Shown: positions 48,972 through 55,008, numbered from the stretch's first letter. The stretch: DNA of 64,000 nt from a virus (IMGVR_UViG_3300045988_182866), one strand, 5' to 3'. Notes: generated by a model from the letters alone, not told the origin. Numbers and translations are program-made.

Positions 48972-49040
48972 ATTAGAATAAAATGAAAGTGGTTAACTCT
49001 ATTAAATGTAAATTTAATCTTATAAATCAAATTTAGAAAA

Positions 49041-49280
49041 TTGGAGTTAATCTTTCAAAATCACCTCAACTTTTTAAGAATAAAACCAATATTAAAGAAA
49101 ATGGACTTTTTTAATAAGTGTTCTTGTAATCCTCGGACTGTTACTAAATGGACAGTTTATAAAGAAGGTTCTTATTTCATTTATAAATGTACTGAATGTG
49201 GAAACTCCTTTAAACGTCCAGTTAATTGGGAAACAATCCAGAAGGATAAAATGAAAAATTTAATGAAGCATGGAAGATAA
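49041..49280 (+). CDS. Small zinc-ribbon protein
   Basis: CSCN...(x26)...CTECGN pairs of Cys. Confidence 0.35.
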   Translation: MELIFQNHLNFLRIKPILKKMDFFNKCSCNPRTVTKWTVYKEGSYFIYKCTECGNSFKRPVNWETIQKDKMKNLMKHGR

Positions 49281-49656
49281 AAAAACTTTAAAGGTTAAAT
49301 GTTTTATTACCGGAGAAGAAAGTATTTTTTCTGGTGATTATTTGAATAAACTTATTGAAAGATATGGTTCAAGAGAAAATATTTTAAAATATTACATTAC
49401 ATATCGAGCTAAGAATTTCCTTTTTAAAGGATATACAATTCCAGAAATCAGGAAAATTCTTCTTTTAAAGAAGACTGAACTTGAAGATCCTTCTTCTCCT
49501 AAAGGAATCGAATTAATAAAATATTGGCAAGACCAGAAAAATCTCAAGGTTAAGTATAAAATGAAAGATCAAAAAGATAATGTTTCTTTCATTAAAACTG
49601 ATCCGGAAGTAAAAGATTTTATTAACAATTGGATTAAATCTAAAAAAATAGAATAA
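49270..49656 (+). CDS. Hypothetical protein
   Basis: ORF track. Confidence 0.4.
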   Translation: MEDKKTLKVKCFITGEESIFSGDYLNKLIERYGSRENILKYYITYRAKNFLFKGYTIPEIRKILLLKKTELEDPSSPKGIELIKYWQDQKNLKVKYKMKDQKDNVSFIKTDPEVKDFINNWIKSKKIE

Positions 49657-49716
49657 AAAATTAAAATTTTATCACTGATTTATTATCAATAATTTTTTAA
49701 TTTATATACATTTTTA

Positions 49717-49758
49717 AAATTGATAAGTCCCTTAAAATAAGGGACTTATCAATTTTTA
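49717..49758 (+). terminator. Rho-independent terminator
   Basis: AAATTGATAAGTCCC-ttaaaataa-GGGACTTATCAATTT followed by TTTAAT. Confidence 0.7.
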
Positions 49759-49795
49759 ATTTGAAAAAATTTTATACATAAATACAAAATACACT

Positions 49796-52669
49796 ATGTT
49801 GAATGGATTAGAAGATGTATTAAAGGCAGATACAGCAAAGAGTACAAAAATTGATTGTACACAGTCAGTAGAAGAATATATTAATAAAAGTGACTGGCGT
49901 ATATTTGCTAATGCTAATACAGGATATAGTAATGCTGGATTAGTAAATGGACTAGCTGGTAAAGTAATAGCCAATTATTGGTTAGATAAAGTTTATTCAA
50001 AAAAAGAGGGTGATGCACATAGAAATGGCGATTATCACATTCATGATTTAGATTGTTTAAGTGGTTATTGTTGTGGTCATGATTTACAACGATTATTAAA
50101 TGAGGGTTTTAATGGTGTAGTGGGAAGAGTAGGTTCAAAAGCACCAAAACATTTTAGAGAAGCTTTATATCAAATGGCTAATTTCATTGGTATTTTACAA
50201 GCTGAATGGGGTGGTGCTCAAGCGTTTAGTTCTTTTGATACATATCTTGCACCTTATGTTTTTTTTGATATGTATTATAGTGGTTTAACTTATAAAGATA
50301 TTAAGAAAGCCATCTTAAATTTCATTTATAATTTAAATGTGCCATCACGCTGGGGACAATCTCCGTTTTCAAATATTACAATTGACTGGATTGTCCCTAA
50401 TGATATGTCTGCCCAATATCCTCTAAGAAATGATAAGAATTATTTTAAAACAATTTATGAAGATTTATCAGATGAAGAAAAAACAAAATTTAGAACGACA
50501 GTTATTGAAGAACTTAAAAAACGTTTAGAGAATATAGAAAATTCTATAGATAGTCTATTTGATAAAATAACATATAAGTTATTTCAAAAAGAAATGAATC
50601 TTATTAATAAAGCTTTTTATGAATGTTTAAACGAGGGCGATATTAATGGATTACCTTTTACATTCCCAATTCCTACAGTTAATATTACAGAAAATTTTGA
50701 TTGGGATGGAGAAAATACTGATCTTCTTTTTGAAAATGCTGCAAAATATGGATCTTCTTATTTCCAAAATTTTATTGGTTCGCAATATAAACGAGATGAA
50801 AATGGTAATTTAGTTCCTGATCCAAATGCTTATAGTCCAAATGATGTACGAAGTATGTGTCCACTAACTGGTGATACGGAAGTATTAACACTTAGTAACA
50901 GAGGTATTAGTAAGACACAAATAGTACATTTAAATGAAAATAGCCATAAAGTATTTTCTAATGGAAATTGGTTTAATTTTAAACGTATCGAAATTAAGCC
51001 ACAAAAAGTATATGAAATTAAATTATCAAATGGTACTTCTATAAAAATGGGAGAACATCATTTACAACCAATATATGGTAGTACTAAAGAATGTAAAGAT
51101 CTTAAAGTTGGTGATTTAATACCATTTAATAGTCAAATAATTAATTGGGACAAAGCTGTTGGTGATTATCATCTTGGTTATGCAATCGGTGCTTATTATG
51201 GTGATGGCTCAACCGATGGTAATACTGTAATATATTCTCTTTCTGTTGATGAAAAAGATAATATAACTGAAGAAAAATTACGAAAATTTTGGACTTCTAA
51301 TGGGTATCATGTTAAAACAATAAATGTTAACAATGTTCGTTCAATAGTGGTTACTGGAAATGCTTTTAATTTAATTGGACGATTTTGTAGTGGTAATAAT
51401 GCTCTTACTAAAGGTATTCACAGTTTAGCATTTAGTTTATCAGTAGATGCTCGTCAGGGAATTATAGATGGATATATTGCTACAGATGGTAATAAAGATC
51501 GCAGGCGAATTAGTACTTCATCCCAAGCAATGGTTAATGATTTATTAACTTTGTTTACTTTACAGGGTAAAAAAGCTTTATTATCATCTATAGATAATCG
51601 TGAAAATCGTCTAGGAAGTAATCCAAATTATATTGTTTCTTATCCTGAAAAAGACAATTATAGTGATTTTTATCAAACTATTGATGGTATAATATATTTT
51701 ATAATTAAAGAAATAAAAGAAATTCCGCAACAAAAACTTTATTGTATTGAGGTTGATAATGAAGATCATACATTTGTATTAGGTAACGGGATGATTACGC
51801 ATAATTGTCGTCTTCAATTAGATAAGCGAGAATTACGAAAACGTGGAGGAGGCTTATTTGGTTCAGATGCACAAACTGGCAGCATAGGCGTAGTAACAAT
51901 TAATATGGCCCGCCTTGGCTATCTTTACAAAGGTAACTTTCCGCTTCTTAAGAAAAAACTTATTCATTTAATGGAATTGGCTAAATCGACTTTAGAAAAA
52001 AAGCGTTCTTTTATTAATGAATTATATCTAAGAGGATTATACCCATATACAAGACGATATCTTAAAGGCTTTAATACATTTTTTAGTACAATCGGCGTTA
52101 ATGGAATGAATGAAATGGTTCGTAATTTTTCAAATGACGAATATGATATTACTTCATATGAAGGCCAGAAAATGTGTATAGAACTATTAGATTTAATTCG
52201 CTCTAAAATGTCTGATTATCAAGAAGAAACTGGAAATCTTTATAACCTTGAAGCTACCCCGGCAGAAGGAACAACTTATCGATTTGCCAAAGAGGATATT
52301 AAACGTTTTCCGGACATTATTCATGCTGGTACTGAAAAAGAACCTTACTATACAAATAGCTCTCAGCTCCCGGTAAATTTTACGGATGATCCCTTTGAAG
52401 CACTTGATAAGCAAGATGAGCTTCAATGCAAATATACTGGTGGTACAGTAATCCATTTATATATGACAGAAAGACTTTCTAATGCAACAGCTTGTAAAAA
52501 TCTTATAAAAAAGGTACTTACAAATTATCGCTTGCCATATATATCTATAACTCCAACATATTCTACATGTCCAATACATGGTTATATTCCTGGAAATCAT
52601 GAATTTTGTCCAAAATGTGACCAAATAATTTTAGAAGAATATGCTAAAGAAATTGATTTTAACGAATAA
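49796..52669 (+). CDS. nrdD: Anaerobic ribonucleoside-triphosphate reductase NrdD (class III), interrupted in frame by an intein and lacking the glycyl-radical tail, which is encoded by the next ORF
   Basis: Class III RNR layout. C-terminal Zn ribbon CPIHGYIPGNHEFCPKCD. 957 aa, of which 316 aa are intein, leaving ~641 aa of extein (T4 NrdD is ~605 aa). Adjacent to nrdG. Confidence 0.8.
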   Translation: MLNGLEDVLKADTAKSTKIDCTQSVEEYINKSDWRIFANANTGYSNAGLVNGLAGKVIANYWLDKVYSKKEGDAHRNGDYHIHDLDCLSGYCCGHDLQRLLNEGFNGVVGRVGSKAPKHFREALYQMANFIGILQAEWGGAQAFSSFDTYLAPYVFFDMYYSGLTYKDIKKAILNFIYNLNVPSRWGQSPFSNITIDWIVPNDMSAQYPLRNDKNYFKTIYEDLSDEEKTKFRTTVIEELKKRLENIENSIDSLFDKITYKLFQKEMNLINKAFYECLNEGDINGLPFTFPIPTVNITENFDWDGENTDLLFENAAKYGSSYFQNFIGSQYKRDENGNLVPDPNAYSPNDVRSMCPLTGDTEVLTLSNRGISKTQIVHLNENSHKVFSNGNWFNFKRIEIKPQKVYEIKLSNGTSIKMGEHHLQPIYGSTKECKDLKVGDLIPFNSQIINWDKAVGDYHLGYAIGAYYGDGSTDGNTVIYSLSVDEKDNITEEKLRKFWTSNGYHVKTINVNNVRSIVVTGNAFNLIGRFCSGNNALTKGIHSLAFSLSVDARQGIIDGYIATDGNKDRRRISTSSQAMVNDLLTLFTLQGKKALLSSIDNRENRLGSNPNYIVSYPEKDNYSDFYQTIDGIIYFIIKEIKEIPQQKLYCIEVDNEDHTFVLGNGMITHNCRLQLDKRELRKRGGGLFGSDAQTGSIGVVTINMARLGYLYKGNFPLLKKKLIHLMELAKSTLEKKRSFINELYLRGLYPYTRRYLKGFNTFFSTIGVNGMNEMVRNFSNDEYDITSYEGQKMCIELLDLIRSKMSDYQEETGNLYNLEATPAEGTTYRFAKEDIKRFPDIIHAGTEKEPYYTNSSQLPVNFTDDPFEALDKQDELQCKYTGGTVIHLYMTERLSNATACKNLIKKVLTNYRLPYISITPTYSTCPIHGYIPGNHEFCPKCDQIILEEYAKEIDFNE
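50858..51805 (+). other. Intein (316 aa) with a LAGLIDADG-type homing endonuclease domain inside NrdD
   Basis: Begins CPLTGDTEVLTL immediately after extein ...VRSM. Ends ...GNGMITHN followed by extein CRLQLDKRE (His-Asn + Cys+1). Internal DOD motifs LGYAIGAYYGDGSTDG and QGIIDGYIATDGNKD. Confidence 0.7.
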
Positions 52670-52680
52670 TAATTTATAAT

Positions 52681-52848
52681 ATGAGTAAAACTGAATTATT
52701 GAAACAATTAGAAGCTAAACGTACACGTTGTCAAGTTTGGACGCGTGTAATGGGTTATCTTAGGAATACTGATAATTTTAATATTGGTAAAAAAGGTGAA
52801 TTTAAAGAACGAACATTTTTTACTGAGTCAAAGTGTCGGTGTTTATAA
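52681..52848 (+). CDS. nrdD: NrdD C-terminal glycyl-radical domain encoded as a separate 55-aa ORF (split nrdD)
   Basis: MSKTELLKQLEAKRTRCQVWTRVMGYLRNTDNFNIGKKGEFKERTFF. RVMGY matches the class III RNR glycyl-radical motif RV.GY, followed by the N.GK..E...R tail. It starts 11 nt after the main nrdD stop. It is below the ORF-track size cut-off and was translated by hand. Confidence 0.6.
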   Translation: MSKTELLKQLEAKRTRCQVWTRVMGYLRNTDNFNIGKKGEFKERTFFTESKCRCL

Positions 52849-52879
52849 AAAATAAAAAATAAAAAATTAATATTAAAAA

Positions 52880-52916
52880 AATTAACTGATATAAATTATA
52901 TCAGTTAATTTTTTAT
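52880..52916. terminator. Perfect 15-bp-stem palindrome with flanking A/T runs (bidirectional terminator) between nrdD and nrdG
   Basis: AATTAACTGATATAA-A-TTATATCAGTTAATT followed by TTTTAT, preceded by AAAAAA. Confidence 0.6.
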
Positions 52917-52927
52917 ACAATAATGAA

Positions 52928-53641
52928 ATGAATTTATTTGAAAATAGAATAGGCGGCGTTGAACCATTTACGTTAATCGATTTTCCTAATAAAATAGCCG
53001 GTATTTTATTCTATACAAATTGTAATCTGCATTGTCCATATTGTTATAATGTAGAACTTGTTAAGAATATATGTACTAAATTAAATTCTAACGACGTCCT
53101 TAATTTTATAAAAAAACGAAAAAATAAATTAGACGGTTTTGTATTTTCTGGAGGTGAATGTACTATACATGGTAATAATTTAATAAATGATATTATTTTT
53201 GTTAAAAACGCAGGATTTGACATTAAAGTTGATACAAATGGAACTAATCCTGATGTTATTCAAAAATTATTAAATTTAAATCTTGTCAATTATTTTGCTT
53301 TAGATTATAAAGCTCCTATTAATAAAAAAGATTTATTTTTTTCAAATATACAAACCTATGATAATTTTATCAAGACATTATCTTTATTAAATTCTTCTGA
53401 AATTCCTTTTGAAATCAGAACAACAATTCATACTGATATTATTGATGAAAATGATATTAATTTAATTCTAAAACATTTAGAAAGTATAAATTATAAAGGT
53501 AATTATTATATCCAATTTTATTTTAAAACTAAAAAAACTCTCGGTAACGTATCAAATAATCCAAGATATTTTGATATTACAAAAATTATTAATAAAAAAA
53601 ATATTAATATCCAATATAGAAACATTGAAGCTAATATATGA
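52928..53641 (+). CDS. nrdG: Anaerobic RNR activating enzyme NrdG (radical SAM)
   Basis: CNLHCPYCYN (Cx3Cx2C) and FSGGECT SAM-binding motif. Immediately downstream of nrdD. Confidence 0.75.
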   Translation: MNLFENRIGGVEPFTLIDFPNKIAGILFYTNCNLHCPYCYNVELVKNICTKLNSNDVLNFIKKRKNKLDGFVFSGGECTIHGNNLINDIIFVKNAGFDIKVDTNGTNPDVIQKLLNLNLVNYFALDYKAPINKKDLFFSNIQTYDNFIKTLSLLNSSEIPFEIRTTIHTDIIDENDINLILKHLESINYKGNYYIQFYFKTKKTLGNVSNNPRYFDITKIINKKNINIQYRNIEANI

Positions 53642-54255
53642 GTGAACAATCTAAAAATGAAGATTATATCTCCTTAATTGAATCTGAAAATGAAAAACAT
53701 TTATTTTTCTCTGGATCATTAAACCGGCTTTCTGCCTTTAACTTAAATGGCCAGCTAGTTGCATGCGATATGGCTTATCGAGAAAAAAAAACTGAAAATG
53801 AATTTGGTTTTATACAAAAAGATGAACAAAAAGAAGTCAATGATAAACTTATTATTCATTTAAATTGTCCAGGAGGCCAGGTATCTTATGCTTTCTTAAT
53901 TGCCGATGTTATTAAATCTTTAGAAATTCCTGTTTATTGTATAGGTGAAGGATCTATCGCTTCTGCAGGAACTGTCTTATTATTAGCCTGTGAAAAACGG
54001 ACAGCTCTTCCTCATTGTACCTTTTATTTTCATGAAACAATTCATTCTATTGAACAATTAAGCTTTGATGAATTAGAATCTTTTATGGAAGAGTCAAAGA
54101 GAGTTAATGAAGAGCTTAAAAATTATTATCGTATCAGAAGTAATATATCTATAGCTGATATTGATACATTAATGAGGTCTGAGGCTATCATTAGTGCTTT
54201 AGAGGCATATAATAAAGGCTTTTTAACTGATTTACCAGGAACTATTTTAGTTTAA
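53638..54255 (+). CDS. ClpP-family (S14) serine protease-like protein
   Basis: LNCPGGQVSYAFLIADVI, VYCIGEGSIASAGTVLLLA (compare ClpP TICMGQAASMGAFLLAAG) and the His region TFYFHETIHS (compare IMIHQP). Confidence 0.55.
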   Translation: MSEQSKNEDYISLIESENEKHLFFSGSLNRLSAFNLNGQLVACDMAYREKKTENEFGFIQKDEQKEVNDKLIIHLNCPGGQVSYAFLIADVIKSLEIPVYCIGEGSIASAGTVLLLACEKRTALPHCTFYFHETIHSIEQLSFDELESFMEESKRVNEELKNYYRIRSNISIADIDTLMRSEAIISALEAYNKGFLTDLPGTILV

Positions 54256-54291
54256 TAAATTAAAATAAAAAGGCCCATTAAATATTGACTA

Positions 54292-55008
54292 ATGGGCCTT
54301 AATAGCTTAAAAAATTTAGCCAATGGCTTGGCAGCTACTGGAGCTAATTTTAAAATTGGAGGATTTACTGTTAATCTTCCAACTCTTAATATTTTTAATT
54401 CAAATATTGAATCTCCTTCTACTGGAACTTTTATTGCATCAGCCGGTTCTATTGTTCAAACTTTAACTCAGGGGGCTAAAGGGGTTATGTGTATCGGGAC
54501 ACTTTTAATGAATCCCAATCAAATGTTAAAAGCCCTCAACCTTGCTGGAGATTTTATTCTTGGCCTTGGCCTTCAATTATTAAATGATGTTTATCGGACT
54601 TGCATGGCGCGAGTTAATAATATCCTTGCTACTTCTTATGGATTAGTTTTAGGATATTTTAAAACAATTAAAAACATTATTTCAGCCATCCAAGGTGTAG
54701 GAGATATGCTCAACAATATCTACGAATTCTTTACCGACAGGTCAAAGAGTAAAGTAGATTTTATAATGAAAAGCGATGATTGCGCATACTTCATCGCTAA
54801 CATTTTGCGTTGTATGATTGGCAAAATGGTTACTCCATATTTGAATGAGCTACAACTTAAGGCAGATCAAAAAATTAATAATATTGCTGGAGGAATTGAA
54901 AATAAAATTACTCAAAATACTGAAGTTTTAAACTCAATGTCTTCTTATCTCAATAATCAGGCAATGTTTGTTAATAAATTCACTTCTCAAGTAAACTCTA
55001 TATTCTAA
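54292..55008 (+). CDS. Hypothetical protein, probably baseplate-associated
   Basis: ORF track. First gene of the baseplate-hub-like cluster. A hairpin (AAGGCCCATTA...TAATGGGCCTT) overlaps its start. Confidence 0.4.
   Translation: MGLNSLKNLANGLAATGANFKIGGFTVNLPTLNIFNSNIESPSTGTFIASAGSIVQTLTQGAKGVMCIGTLLMNPNQMLKALNLAGDFILGLGLQLLNDVYRTCMARVNNILATSYGLVLGYFKTIKNIISAIQGVGDMLNNIYEFFTDRSKSKVDFIMKSDDCAYFIANILRCMIGKMVTPYLNELQLKADQKINNIAGGIENKITQNTEVLNSMSSYLNNQAMFVNKFTSQVNSIF

What the first reader, a model, noticed from the sequence alone, without database searches (positions are those of the whole stretch)
52600..52848. nrdD is split: the glycyl-radical C-terminal peptide is a separate 55-aa ORF 11 nt downstream
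The main NrdD ORF stops (…CPKCDQIILEEYAKEIDFNE*) just after the Zn-ribbon. An ATG 11 nt later opens a 55-aa ORF: MSKTELLKQLEAKRTRCQVWTRVMGYLRNTDNFNIGKKGEFKERTFF. This contains the class III glycyl-radical motif RV.GY and the conserved tail. Either the enzyme works as two polypeptides, as split RNR genes in some T4-like phages do after homing-endonuclease invasion. Or it is a scar of a lost mobile element. Or there is a programmed bypass or read-through. The palindromic terminator at 52880-52916 follows the small ORF, not the large one. This is consistent with co-transcription.
Basis: seen in the sequence. Interest (0 to 1): 0.6.

Follow-up and report, generated by a model that had tools for sequence, protein, structure and literature searches.

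The report
Two-piece anaerobic ribonucleotide reductase
This phage encodes its oxygen-sensitive DNA-precursor enzyme (class III ribonucleotide reductase) as a large catalytic body plus a separate 55-residue peptide carrying the radical-bearing glycine, an arrangement shared by hundreds of bacteria and phages and not described in the papers I could search.

Summary
The NrdD ORF (49796-52669) ends at tandem TAA TAA, 16 residues after its zinc ribbon. An ATG 11 nt later opens a 55-aa ORF (52681-52848) in another frame. Family profiles divide cleanly between the two: NF006126 positions up to 649 fall in the large ORF, and 649-682 of 684 fall in the small one.

It is not a sequencing error, recoding site or recent homing-endonuclease scar:
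- An independent assembly has the identical junction.
- Two related phages keep the split with 6- and 15-nt spacers.
- Of the 240 closest large-subunit homologs, 239 contain the zinc ribbon and none has a Gly-radical motif after it.
- In all 72 bacterial and phage loci where I resolved both parts, a stop separates them. Spacing runs from -41 to +877 nt, in any frame.
- The peptide is under purifying selection (dN/dS about 0.06-0.13).

Most likely the peptide is an in-trans glycyl-radical subunit, activated by the adjacent NrdG. Its function is inferred, not shown.

In 79 of the 80 best viral contigs the peptide gene stands alone, which suggests spare-part use. Reviews from 2021 and 2026 say spare parts are known only for pyruvate formate-lyase. 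I class this as a new variant of a known enzyme kind.

The parts
49796..52669 (+). nrdD large ORF (957 aa including the intein; 642-aa extein). It encodes the class III RNR catalytic barrel, finger loop and zinc ribbon, and lacks a glycyl-radical loop.
   Evidence: Pfam NRDD E 9e-148. NF006126 scores 907 bits and covers the profile to 649/684. An AF2 model with a large-subunit MSA has pTM 0.80; its best PDB matches are T. maritima, P. copri and T4 NrdD.
50861..51805 (+). Intein (315 aa, Pro356-Asn670) with a LAGLIDADG endonuclease domain. It is inserted between the two finger-loop cysteines (SMC|...|CRLQLD).
   Evidence: Pfam Intein_splicing and TIGR01443. The intein-free homolog in L001 reads SMCCRLQLD. 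LAGLIDADG motifs lie at 51173-51211 and 51461-51493.
52568..52618 (+). Zinc ribbon CPIH...CPKC (CxxH-x9-CxxC), the last conserved element of the large ORF.
   Evidence: C610, H613, C623 and C626 (extein numbering) are invariant in 57 large subunits.
52619..52666 (+). 16-residue C-terminal tail of the large ORF (DQIILEEYAKEIDFNE). It is absent from continuous NrdDs and is a candidate docking helix.
   Evidence: Tails run 5-30 residues, with a mode of 16-17, in 239 homologs. AF2 predicts a helix here (H624-637).
52667..52680 (+). Junction: tandem stops TAA TAA, then TTTATAAT before the ATG. The intercistronic spacer is 11 nt with no Shine-Dalgarno sequence.
   Evidence: The junction is identical in the independent assembly L177. 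Genes of this phage generally lack Shine-Dalgarno sequences.
52681..52848 (+). Small ORF (55 aa): a stand-alone NrdD-type glycyl-radical peptide. The RVMGY motif has Gly25 at 52753-52755. Cys17 lies at Gly-8 and the C-terminus reads CRCL.
   Evidence: Pfam and NCBIfam match only the NrdD C-terminus. Of the 84 and 150 listed homologs, all but one repeat-protein false positive are 41-121 aa proteins. The family has 12 invariant columns, including the column of Gly25. dN/dS is 0.06-0.13.
52876..52914 (+). AT-rich perfect hairpin (18-bp stem, 3-nt loop) with a T-run, lying between the small ORF and nrdG. It looks like a terminator or attenuator.
   Evidence: dG -16.9 kcal/mol, z -7.2. L001 and L096 have hairpins in the same position with different sequences (z -4.4 and -4.8).
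52928..53641 (+). nrdG: the radical-SAM activase of class III RNR.
   Evidence: TIGR02495 NrdG2, E 7e-51, above its cut-off. Pfam Radical_SAM.

Best explanation
This is a natural two-subunit class III (anaerobic) ribonucleotide reductase.

The large ORF, after its intein splices out, supplies the catalytic barrel, the finger-loop cysteines and the zinc ribbon. The 55-aa ORF supplies the glycyl-radical loop as a separate polypeptide. That peptide is translated on its own from the same transcript.

Proposed mechanism (all inferred):
1. NrdG, encoded next door, abstracts a hydrogen from Gly25 of the peptide.
2. The peptide's Gly loop sits in the barrel next to the finger-loop cysteine and generates the thiyl radical, as the covalently attached C-terminal domain does in ordinary NrdD.
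3. About 30 extra residues flank the break: a 16-aa tail on the large protein and a 14-aa head on the peptide. Together with a nearly invariant Cys at Gly-8, they probably replace the lost covalent link as a docking interface.

The split is not specific to this phage. It is an old, conserved trait of a broad NrdD clade found in Campylobacterota, Flavobacterium and other Bacteroidota, Betaproteobacteria, other bacteria and phages.

Shown: gene anatomy, conservation, selection and synteny. Inferred: separate translation, activation in trans, docking, and any advantage such as cheap replacement of the oxygen-destroyed radical part.
For: Exact complementarity:
- Profile coverage is divided cleanly between the two ORFs.
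- The small ORF aligns to the last 35 residues of continuous NrdDs.

Not an error:
- The junction is identical in independent assembly L177.
- The same ORF length, 957/958 aa, appears in 18 or more 90%-identity clusters from different assemblies. One cluster has 246 members.
- The near-identical (98%) small ORF P0001 has 27 member sequences.

Conserved in close relatives:
- L001 and L096 keep the order large, stop, small, hairpin, nrdG, with spacers of 15 and 6 nt.

Clade-wide:
- Of the 240 best large-subunit homologs, 239 have the zinc ribbon. None has a Gly-radical motif after it. Tails run 5-30 aa.
- In all 72 loci from genomes and phages where I resolved both parts, a stop ends the large ORF. 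The peptide ORF starts -41 to +877 nt later in any frame. Many loci have a 4-nt ATGA overlap.
- In some loci unrelated genes lie in between: a methyltransferase in L032 and an IscU-like ORF in L045.

The peptide is a conserved protein family:
- 1116 clusters at 50% identity match at E <= 1e-3. Of the best 150, 149 are 41-121 aa.
- Invariant positions include M24, G25, R28, N34, G36, K37, K38, E40 and R44.
- RVMGY occurs in 215 of 224 peptides and Cys at Gly-8 in 217 of 224.
- dN/dS is 0.06 and 0.125.

Other support:
- A LAGLIDADG endonuclease ORF interrupts the peptide gene exactly after RVMG in L176. Homing elements typically target conserved sites.
- An NrdG activase is adjacent here and in most loci.
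Against: - There is no experimental evidence that the peptide is made, carries a radical, or binds the large subunit.
- The structure prediction could not test docking. Without an alignment for the peptide segment, AF2 gave pLDDT 65 falling to 32 for residues 643-697.
- A profile of the peptide family found no PDB chain at E <= 1.
- The genome scan was seeded with peptide-specific motifs, so it says nothing about what fraction of all NrdDs are split.
- The large ORF also needs its intein to splice, which is untested.
- My claim that the architecture is undescribed rests on a library of open-access papers and preprints only.
Confidence: 0.85

Rival explanations
1. Sequencing or assembly error, or a very recent inactivating mutation: a continuous nrdD was broken by an indel or a nonsense change in this one sequence.
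For: The two ORFs are only 11 nt apart and in different frames. A single indel plus a nonsense change could produce that pattern.
Against: - There are two consecutive TAA stops.
- The junction is identical in independent assembly L177.
- The same ORF ends recur in many assemblies.
- Relatives at 69-80% identity, and hundreds of bacterial genomes, have the same break.
- The peptide is under strong purifying selection.
Confidence: 0.01
2. Programmed recoding (frameshift, read-through or translational bypass) joins the two ORFs into one canonical NrdD chain.
For: The spacer is short and the two ORFs are probably co-transcribed.
Against: - The window has tandem stops.
- Neither frame nor spacer length is conserved. 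Close phages have 6, 11 and 15 nt. The family spans -41 to +877 nt, with 4-nt ATGA overlaps typical of coupled re-initiation.
- In some loci whole genes lie between the parts.
- Every peptide ORF starts with its own ATG, and M1 is invariant.
- Rfam finds no RNA element at the junction.
Confidence: 0.02
3. Recent scar of a homing endonuclease, intron or intein that once sat at the junction, as in the mobE-split nrdA of Aeromonas phage Aeh1.
For: - Mobile elements crowd this gene family. This window has an intein in the finger loop.
- L176 has a group I intron with an HNH ORF in the large gene and a LAGLIDADG ORF inside the peptide gene.
- An ancient mobile-element insertion could have caused the original split.
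Against: - The junction holds 11 nt and no remnant.
- The break point is shared with distant bacteria, so it is ancestral and not a recent event in this phage.
- The elements seen in relatives sit at other sites (the MCC finger loop and the RVMG|Y site), not at the large/small junction.
Confidence: 0.03
4. The truncated large protein does not use the peptide. Either it is inactive or uses another radical source, or the peptide mainly acts elsewhere, for example as a spare part or decoy for the host's own NrdD or NrdG.
For: - 79 of the 80 best IMG/VR loci carry the peptide gene with no NrdD or NrdG within 5 kb.
- Some Campylobacter loci have the peptide plus nrdG but no large gene nearby.
- So the peptide can evidently be useful away from a cis-encoded partner.
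Against: - In this window and in 71 of 80 genome loci, the peptide gene sits between a GRD-less large gene and nrdG.
- The large subunits keep all catalytic motifs but have no glycine-radical site of their own.
- No glycyl-radical enzyme is known to work without that site (established knowledge).
- Orphan copies fit a role as extra supply for a host enzyme that is itself split.
Confidence: 0.07

Closest known systems
Canonical single-chain class III RNR NrdD with activase NrdG (phage T4, E. coli, T. maritima, P. copri, S. thermophilus; PDB 1H79, 4COI, 8P23, 9D3X)
   Same: Same family by profile (NF006126, TIGR02487, Pfam NRDD) and by fold. It shares the finger-loop cysteines, the zinc ribbon, an RVxGY...FNxGK glycyl-radical motif and an adjacent NrdG.
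   Different: In every solved or described enzyme the glycyl-radical loop is the covalent C-terminus of NrdD. Here it is a separate 55-aa gene product. About 30 extra residues flank the break, and there is a family-specific Cys at Gly-8.
GrcA/YfiD of E. coli and Y06I of phage T4 (autonomous glycyl radical cofactors, the spare parts for pyruvate formate-lyase)
   Same: A small stand-alone protein that carries only a glycyl-radical domain. The cognate activase activates it, and it supplies the radical to a barrel that lacks an intact one (PMC8683613). Phages also encode it.
   Different: GrcA is PFL-type (RVSGY, about 127 aa). It rescues a normally complete enzyme after oxygen cleavage. The peptide here is NrdD-type and matches no Gly_radical Pfam model. 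It appears to be the only radical domain its partner ever has. Reviews state that spare parts are known only for formate lyases (PMC13450708; PMC8683613).
Split class II RNR NrdJa/NrdJb (Pseudomonas aeruginosa; Thermus phage phiYS40)
   Same: An RNR catalytic subunit is encoded as two consecutive ORFs a few nucleotides apart. The downstream piece carries a C-terminal functional module (PMC9669993; PMC3653736).
   Different: It is a B12-dependent class II enzyme with no glycyl radical. [quoted passage not shown]
Genes-in-pieces and intron- or intein-interrupted phage RNR genes (Aeh1 nrdA with mobE; T4 nrdD group I intron; the split nrdD cases listed by Dwivedi et al. 2013)
   Same: Phage RNR genes interrupted at the DNA level. 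Some still give a working enzyme (PMC3653736).
   Different: Those interruptions are caused by a resident mobile element and are lineage-specific. Here nothing sits at the junction, and the break is shared with distant cellular genomes.

Membership tests
Class III RNR catalytic subunit NrdD (NF006126 / TIGR02487 / PF13597) | Significant match to the curated family profile | tested here: met
   The large ORF scores 907 bits against NF006126 (cut-off 548), and Pfam NRDD gives E 9e-148. The fold matches T. maritima, P. copri and T4 NrdD.
Class III RNR catalytic subunit NrdD (NF006126 / TIGR02487 / PF13597) | Finger-loop cysteine(s) that carry the thiyl radical | tested here: met
   The motif is SMC|intein|CRLQLD, and the intein-free homolog reads SMCCRLQLD. 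C355 and C356 are invariant in 57 homologs. Splicing of the intein was not tested.
Class III RNR catalytic subunit NrdD (NF006126 / TIGR02487 / PF13597) | C-terminal zinc ribbon | tested here: met
   CPIH-x9-CPKC lies at 52568-52618, and its four ligand residues are invariant. Metal binding itself cannot be tested here.
Class III RNR catalytic subunit NrdD (NF006126 / TIGR02487 / PF13597) | Glycyl-radical motif RxxGY on the same polypeptide | tested here: not met
   The large ORF stops at profile position 649/684. The motif RVMGY is on the separate 55-aa ORF. None of the 239 ribbon-containing homologs has it.
Class III RNR catalytic subunit NrdD (NF006126 / TIGR02487 / PF13597) | Adjacent radical-SAM activase NrdG | tested here: met
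   The ORF at 52928-53641 matches TIGR02495 NrdG2, E 7e-51, above its cut-off.
GrcA/YfiD autonomous glycyl radical cofactor (Pfam Gly_radical PF01228; InterPro IPR011140) | Sequence membership in the PFL-type glycyl-radical domain family | tested here: not met
   A Pfam scan of the 55-aa ORF returns only NRDD and no Gly_radical model. NCBIfam returns only NrdD models. It may work like GrcA but is not a member.
GrcA/YfiD autonomous glycyl radical cofactor (Pfam Gly_radical PF01228; InterPro IPR011140) | Activation by the activase and functional complementation of a barrel that lacks its radical domain | not testable with these tools
   This needs anaerobic reconstitution and EPR.
Homing-endonuclease 'genes in pieces' (Aeh1 nrdA type) | A free-standing endonuclease gene between the two halves | tested here: not met
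   The spacer is 11 nt.
Intron-interrupted nrdD (T4 sunY type) | A self-splicing intron at the break | tested here: not met
   Eleven nucleotides cannot hold an intron. Rfam finds nothing in 49000-54500 at E <= 0.1. As a positive control, RF00028 was found in relative L176, at another site.
Programmed frameshift, read-through or bypass | Conserved frame relation, spacer and recoding signal across relatives | tested here: not met
   Close phages have spacers of 6, 11 and 15 nt. The family spans -41 to +877 nt in any frame.

The most novel reading that the evidence does not exclude
The glycyl radical of a whole clade of class III RNRs sits on a separately encoded peptide of about 55 aa that acts as a consumable cartridge. 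Oxygen would destroy only the peptide. A fresh one, activated by NrdG, would restore the intact 70-kDa barrel.

On this reading, the many phages and prophages that carry the peptide gene alone are supplying spare radical parts to their hosts' split NrdD. That would be the first spare-part system for a glycyl-radical enzyme other than pyruvate formate-lyase. It would also be the first glycyl-radical enzyme whose radical domain is obligately in trans.
Probability: 0.45. Interest if true: 0.88.

Novelty: new variant of a known kind. Interest (0 to 1): 0.77.

Why it matters
Glycyl-radical enzymes are described as single chains whose C-terminal domain must swing out to meet the activase and swing back into the barrel. 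An enzyme that is naturally cut at that hinge would be useful in three ways:
- It gives a minimal natural substrate for NrdG (55 aa).
- It gives a clean system for separating activation from catalysis.
- It allows a direct test of whether spare parts exist beyond pyruvate formate-lyase. Two recent papers pose this as an open question (PMC8683613; PMC13450708).

There are practical consequences too:
- Annotation pipelines name the large gene as a complete reductase and often miss the peptide or leave it unnamed. Surveys of RNR diversity may therefore discard or mis-score this clade.
- Among the 80 genome loci most similar to the query, microaerophiles and facultative aerobes are prominent. These include Campylobacter concisus, Arcobacter, Sulfurospirillum, Flavobacterium, Thiobacillus and Cupriavidus.
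- The peptide is a common accessory gene in phages from human-associated samples. This points to a role in coping with fluctuating oxygen.

Tried and rejected
Structure prediction:
- AF2 on the fused extein plus peptide, without an alignment, failed (mean pLDDT 34).
- MAFFT alignments mixing large-only and peptide-only rows misplaced one group or the other in three attempts.
- The final AF2 run, with large-only rows, modelled the barrel well (pTM 0.80). It left the peptide unresolved and drew the Gly loop as a low-confidence helix, so it says nothing about docking.

Searches that found nothing useful:
- phmmer with the 137-residue C-terminal fragment, and hmmsearch with the peptide-family profile, found no PDB chain.
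- tblastn of the peptide against 50,697 GenBank phages found no stand-alone homolog. At E <= 10 it found only weak matches to C-termini of continuous NrdDs.
- Six paper searches for a split NrdD or an NrdD-type spare part found nothing. Two broader searches returned only noise.

Ideas I dropped:
- Stop-codon reassignment: the stops are TAA TAA and the frames differ.
- The large-subunit tail as a degenerate copy of the Gly loop: HMMER aligned EEYAKEID to T. maritima DEYMRIVG, but the tail is not conserved in that way across the family.
- The conserved peptide Cys as a replacement zinc ligand: all four ribbon ligands are retained in the large subunit, so the role of this Cys remains unexplained.
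Full report
**What is there**

The window is part of a phage genome of 31% G+C. It encodes a T4-like major head protein, a portal protein, helicases and an endolysin.

On the + strand, the region of interest reads as follows:
- The ORF 49796-52669 encodes a 957-aa NrdD (Pfam NRDD, E 9e-148). It ends ...CPKCDQIILEEYAKEIDFNE at TAA (52667-52669), and a second TAA follows at once.
- Eleven nucleotides after the first stop, an ATG at 52681 opens a 55-aa ORF in another frame: MSKTELLKQLEAKRTRCQVWTRVMGYLRNTDNFNIGKKGEFKERTFFTESKCRCL.
- A perfect 18-bp hairpin follows at 52876-52914 (dG -16.9 kcal/mol, z -7.2).
- Next comes nrdG at 52928-53641 (TIGR02495, E 7e-51).

Two details need correcting. The large ORF also carries a 315-aa intein (50861-51805).

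**The two ORFs are exact complements of one NrdD**
- Pfam NRDD covers profile positions up to 528/562 in the large ORF and 532-562/562 in the small one.
- NF006126 covers up to 649/684 in the large ORF and 649-682/684 in the small one.
- BLASTP aligns peptide residues 15-44 with residues 552-581 of the 586-aa continuous NrdD of Clostridium phage phiCTP1 (E 2e-8). It aligns residues 18-47 with 660-689 of the continuous NrdD in MT835493 (E 1e-6).

In phiCTP1 the sequence runs CPKCG-TKTTYFQRITGY. Here it runs CPKC-[DQIILEEYAKEIDFNE stop][MSKTELLKQLEAKR]-TRCQVWTRVMGY. So the break coincides with about 30 inserted residues, 16 on the large protein and 14 on the peptide.

**It is not an error and not recoding**
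- An independent assembly (L177, 97% identical protein) has the identical junction.
- The same 957/958-aa ORF appears in at least 18 clusters from different assemblies. One cluster has 246 member sequences, on contigs up to 200 kb.
- Two related phages keep the order large, stop, small, hairpin, nrdG. These are L001/L002 (large protein 80% identical, no intein) and L096 (77%). Their spacers are 15 and 6 nt, so the frame relation is not conserved.
- Their hairpins differ in sequence but sit in the same place (z -4.4 and -4.8).
- Substitutions in the peptide gene are mostly synonymous: dN/dS is 0.06 for window versus L001 (dS saturated) and 0.125 for L001 versus L096.
- Rfam finds no RNA element around the junction.
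- The genes of this phage generally have no Shine-Dalgarno sequence. Its absence before the small ORF is therefore normal.

**The split is clade-wide and old**

Evidence from the peptide:
- Searching with the peptide returned 84 hits in the 5.8-billion-protein set, all of 41-84 aa.
- An exhaustive phmmer search returned 1116 clusters at 50% identity with E <= 1e-3. Of the best 150, 149 are 41-121 aa. The exception is a repeat-protein false positive.

Evidence from the large subunit:
- Two searches returned 240 close homologs (60-100% identical). Of these, 239 contain the CxxH...CPxC ribbon.
- None has a glycine-radical motif after the ribbon. Their tails are 5-30 residues long, with a mode of 16-17.
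- The nearest continuous NrdDs I found are only 45-52% identical.

Evidence from genomes:
- The best 80 loci include isolates of Campylobacter concisus, Arcobacter iocasae, several Flavobacterium species, Thiobacillus thioparus DSM 505, Cupriavidus consociatus, Chitinimonas and Aquabacterium. They also include MAGs of Sulfurospirillum, Sulfuricurvum, Sutterella and others.
- In every locus where I resolved both parts, a stop codon ends the large ORF after the ribbon. That is 72 split loci: 68 of the 80 scan loci plus L001, L002, L011 and L012.
- The peptide ORF begins -41 to +877 nt later, in any frame. Many loci have the 4-nt ATGA overlap typical of translational coupling. nrdG usually follows.
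- In L032 a DNA methyltransferase gene lies between the two parts. In L045 two ORFs do, one of them IscU-like.
- Only separate translation is compatible with all of these layouts.

**The peptide family**
- Thirty diverse members share invariant M1, R14, M24, G25, R28, N34, G36, K37, K38, E40, R44 and F47.
- Of 224 peptides, 215 read RVMGY, and 217 have Cys eight residues before the glycine.
- That Cys, and the conserved N-terminal segment, are absent from continuous NrdDs. They look like adaptations to the split state.
- I propose they form the docking interface together with the tail of the large subunit. This is inference only.
- The zinc ribbon keeps all four of its own ligands, so the role of the Cys is unexplained.
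- No Pfam or NCBIfam model is dedicated to the peptide. PHROGs has it as phrog_4132, 'unknown function'.

**Structure**
- With an alignment of 56 large subunits, AF2 models residues 1-642 as an NrdD barrel (pTM 0.80). Its best PDB matches are NrdD of T. maritima, P. copri, S. thermophilus and T4.
- The peptide segment had no aligned rows and came out at pLDDT 65 falling to 32, so docking was not tested.
- All solved class III RNRs are single chains.

**Mechanism proposed**
1. The large protein, after intein splicing, provides the barrel, the finger-loop Cys pair and the zinc ribbon.
2. The peptide is translated separately from the same mRNA.
3. NrdG makes the radical on Gly25.
4. The Gly loop occupies the barrel next to the finger loop, as in ordinary NrdD.

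Steps 1 and 2 rest on sequence and comparative evidence. Steps 3 and 4 are inferred from the established mechanism of class III RNRs.

A plausible advantage follows from what is known of glycyl-radical enzymes: oxygen cleaves the chain at the radical glycine. In a split enzyme, only a 6.5-kDa peptide would be lost.

**Orphan copies**

In IMG/VR, 448 stretches encode a relative of the peptide. In 79 of the best 80 loci there is no NrdD or NrdG within 5 kb. These are mostly 20-55-kb contigs, many from human-associated samples.

Other orphan arrangements:
- Prophage-like contexts occur in bacterial contigs.
- Some Campylobacter loci have the peptide plus nrdG but no large gene within 5-6 kb.
- Two loci place an orphan copy beside rubrerythrin.

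These orphans keep every conserved residue. They resemble the peptides of Campylobacter and Sutterella, whose own NrdDs are split. The simplest reading is that phages supply extra radical peptides to a host enzyme that consumes them. This is the NrdD counterpart of YfiD/GrcA and T4 Y06I for pyruvate formate-lyase. It is a hypothesis.

**Mobile elements**

- The window's intein sits between the two finger-loop cysteines.
- Relatives carry other inteins at that site (ORFs of 803-1117 aa).
- L176 has, at that same site, a group I intron with an HNH ORF (RF00028, 38 bits, E 1.5e-7; below the gathering score of 50).
- In L176 the peptide gene itself is interrupted exactly after RVMG by a LAGLIDADG ORF.

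**Comparison with what is known, and novelty**
- By profile and fold this is a class III RNR. It fails one defining feature: the radical glycine is not on the catalytic chain.
- It works like the GrcA/YfiD spare-part arrangement but is not a member of that family.
- In gene layout it resembles the split class II NrdJa/NrdJb.
- Andorfer et al. 2021 write that only the two PFL spare parts have been validated, and that spare parts may exist for other glycyl-radical enzymes.
- Dwivedi et al. 2013 list split phage nrdD genes, but these are caused by introns, inteins or unexplained fragmentation.
- I found no paper describing an NrdD whose radical domain is a separate gene. The library holds only open-access papers and preprints, so I cannot exclude prior description elsewhere.

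**Verdict**

The split is real, ancient, conserved and almost certainly functional as two polypeptides (confidence 0.85). It is a new variant of a known kind. Interest is 0.77. The architecture would surprise specialists in ribonucleotide reductases and glycyl-radical enzymes, and it makes the spare-part question testable for a second enzyme class.

Noticed in passing
window 50861-51805: A 315-aa intein with LAGLIDADG motifs (51173-51211, 51461-51493) sits between the two finger-loop cysteines: SMC|PLTGD...LYCIEVDNEDHTFVLGNGMITHN|CRLQLD. It begins with Pro rather than Cys/Ser, has Cys where block F usually has Asp, and ends THN. From memory these are the hallmarks of class 3 inteins; I did not test this. 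A mini-intein that also starts with Pro sits at the same site in L032.
   Followed up: partly
L176 3106-6847: On a 43-kb phage contig the large nrdD is cut at the same MCC site by a group I intron (RF00028, 38 bits, below gathering) with an HNH ORF. The small peptide gene is interrupted exactly after RVMG by a 222-aa LAGLIDADG ORF, for which Rfam found no intron. The enzyme there is encoded in four coding segments.
   Followed up: partly
L097-L175 (IMG/VR loci): 79 of the 80 best viral loci carry the NrdD-type glycyl-radical peptide gene alone, with no NrdD or NrdG within 5 kb. Neighbours seen in prophage copies include DUF5675, a Dam-type methyltransferase and an integrase.
   Followed up: partly
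L003-L006, L023, L024, L031, L059: Campylobacter sp. loci have the peptide gene directly upstream of nrdG, but no large nrdD within 5-6 kb. A class I nrdA lies a few kb away. I could not determine where the large subunit is encoded.
   Followed up: no
L070 3821-4583; L080 4968-5723: An orphan peptide gene sits immediately upstream of a rubrerythrin gene. The bins are labelled Parabacteroides or 'bacterium', but the peptide resembles those of Sutterella. The pairing with an oxidative-stress protein may be meaningful, or the contigs may be mis-binned.
   Followed up: no
window 52729-52731 (Cys17 of the small ORF): A Cys eight residues before the radical Gly occurs in 217 of 224 stand-alone peptides and is absent from the continuous NrdDs compared. 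All four zinc ligands are retained in the large subunit, so its role is unexplained.
   Followed up: partly
window 52834-52845 (CRCL): Many peptides end in a Cys pair (CRCL, CC, CGC, CSC): 14% have two or more Cys in the tail and 41% have at least one. The continuous relative MT835493 has TCC followed by a fused glutaredoxin-like domain. This recalls the C-terminal redox-shuttle cysteines of class I and II RNRs.
   Followed up: partly
L045 4171-4981; L032 4123-4902: Unrelated genes sit between the large and small nrdD genes. L045 has a 116-aa ORF and a 175-aa IscU-like ORF. L032 has a DNA methyltransferase.
   Followed up: partly
window 53638-54255: A ClpP-like protease ORF overlaps the nrdG stop by 4 nt (ATGA). 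The order nrdD, peptide, nrdG, clpP is kept in L001 and L177. It is probably the prohead protease at the start of a structural module.
   Followed up: no
window, whole: Almost none of 42 ORF starts has a Shine-Dalgarno-like motif. The leaders are A/T-rich. This suggests a host with SD-independent initiation, such as Bacteroidota.
   Followed up: partly
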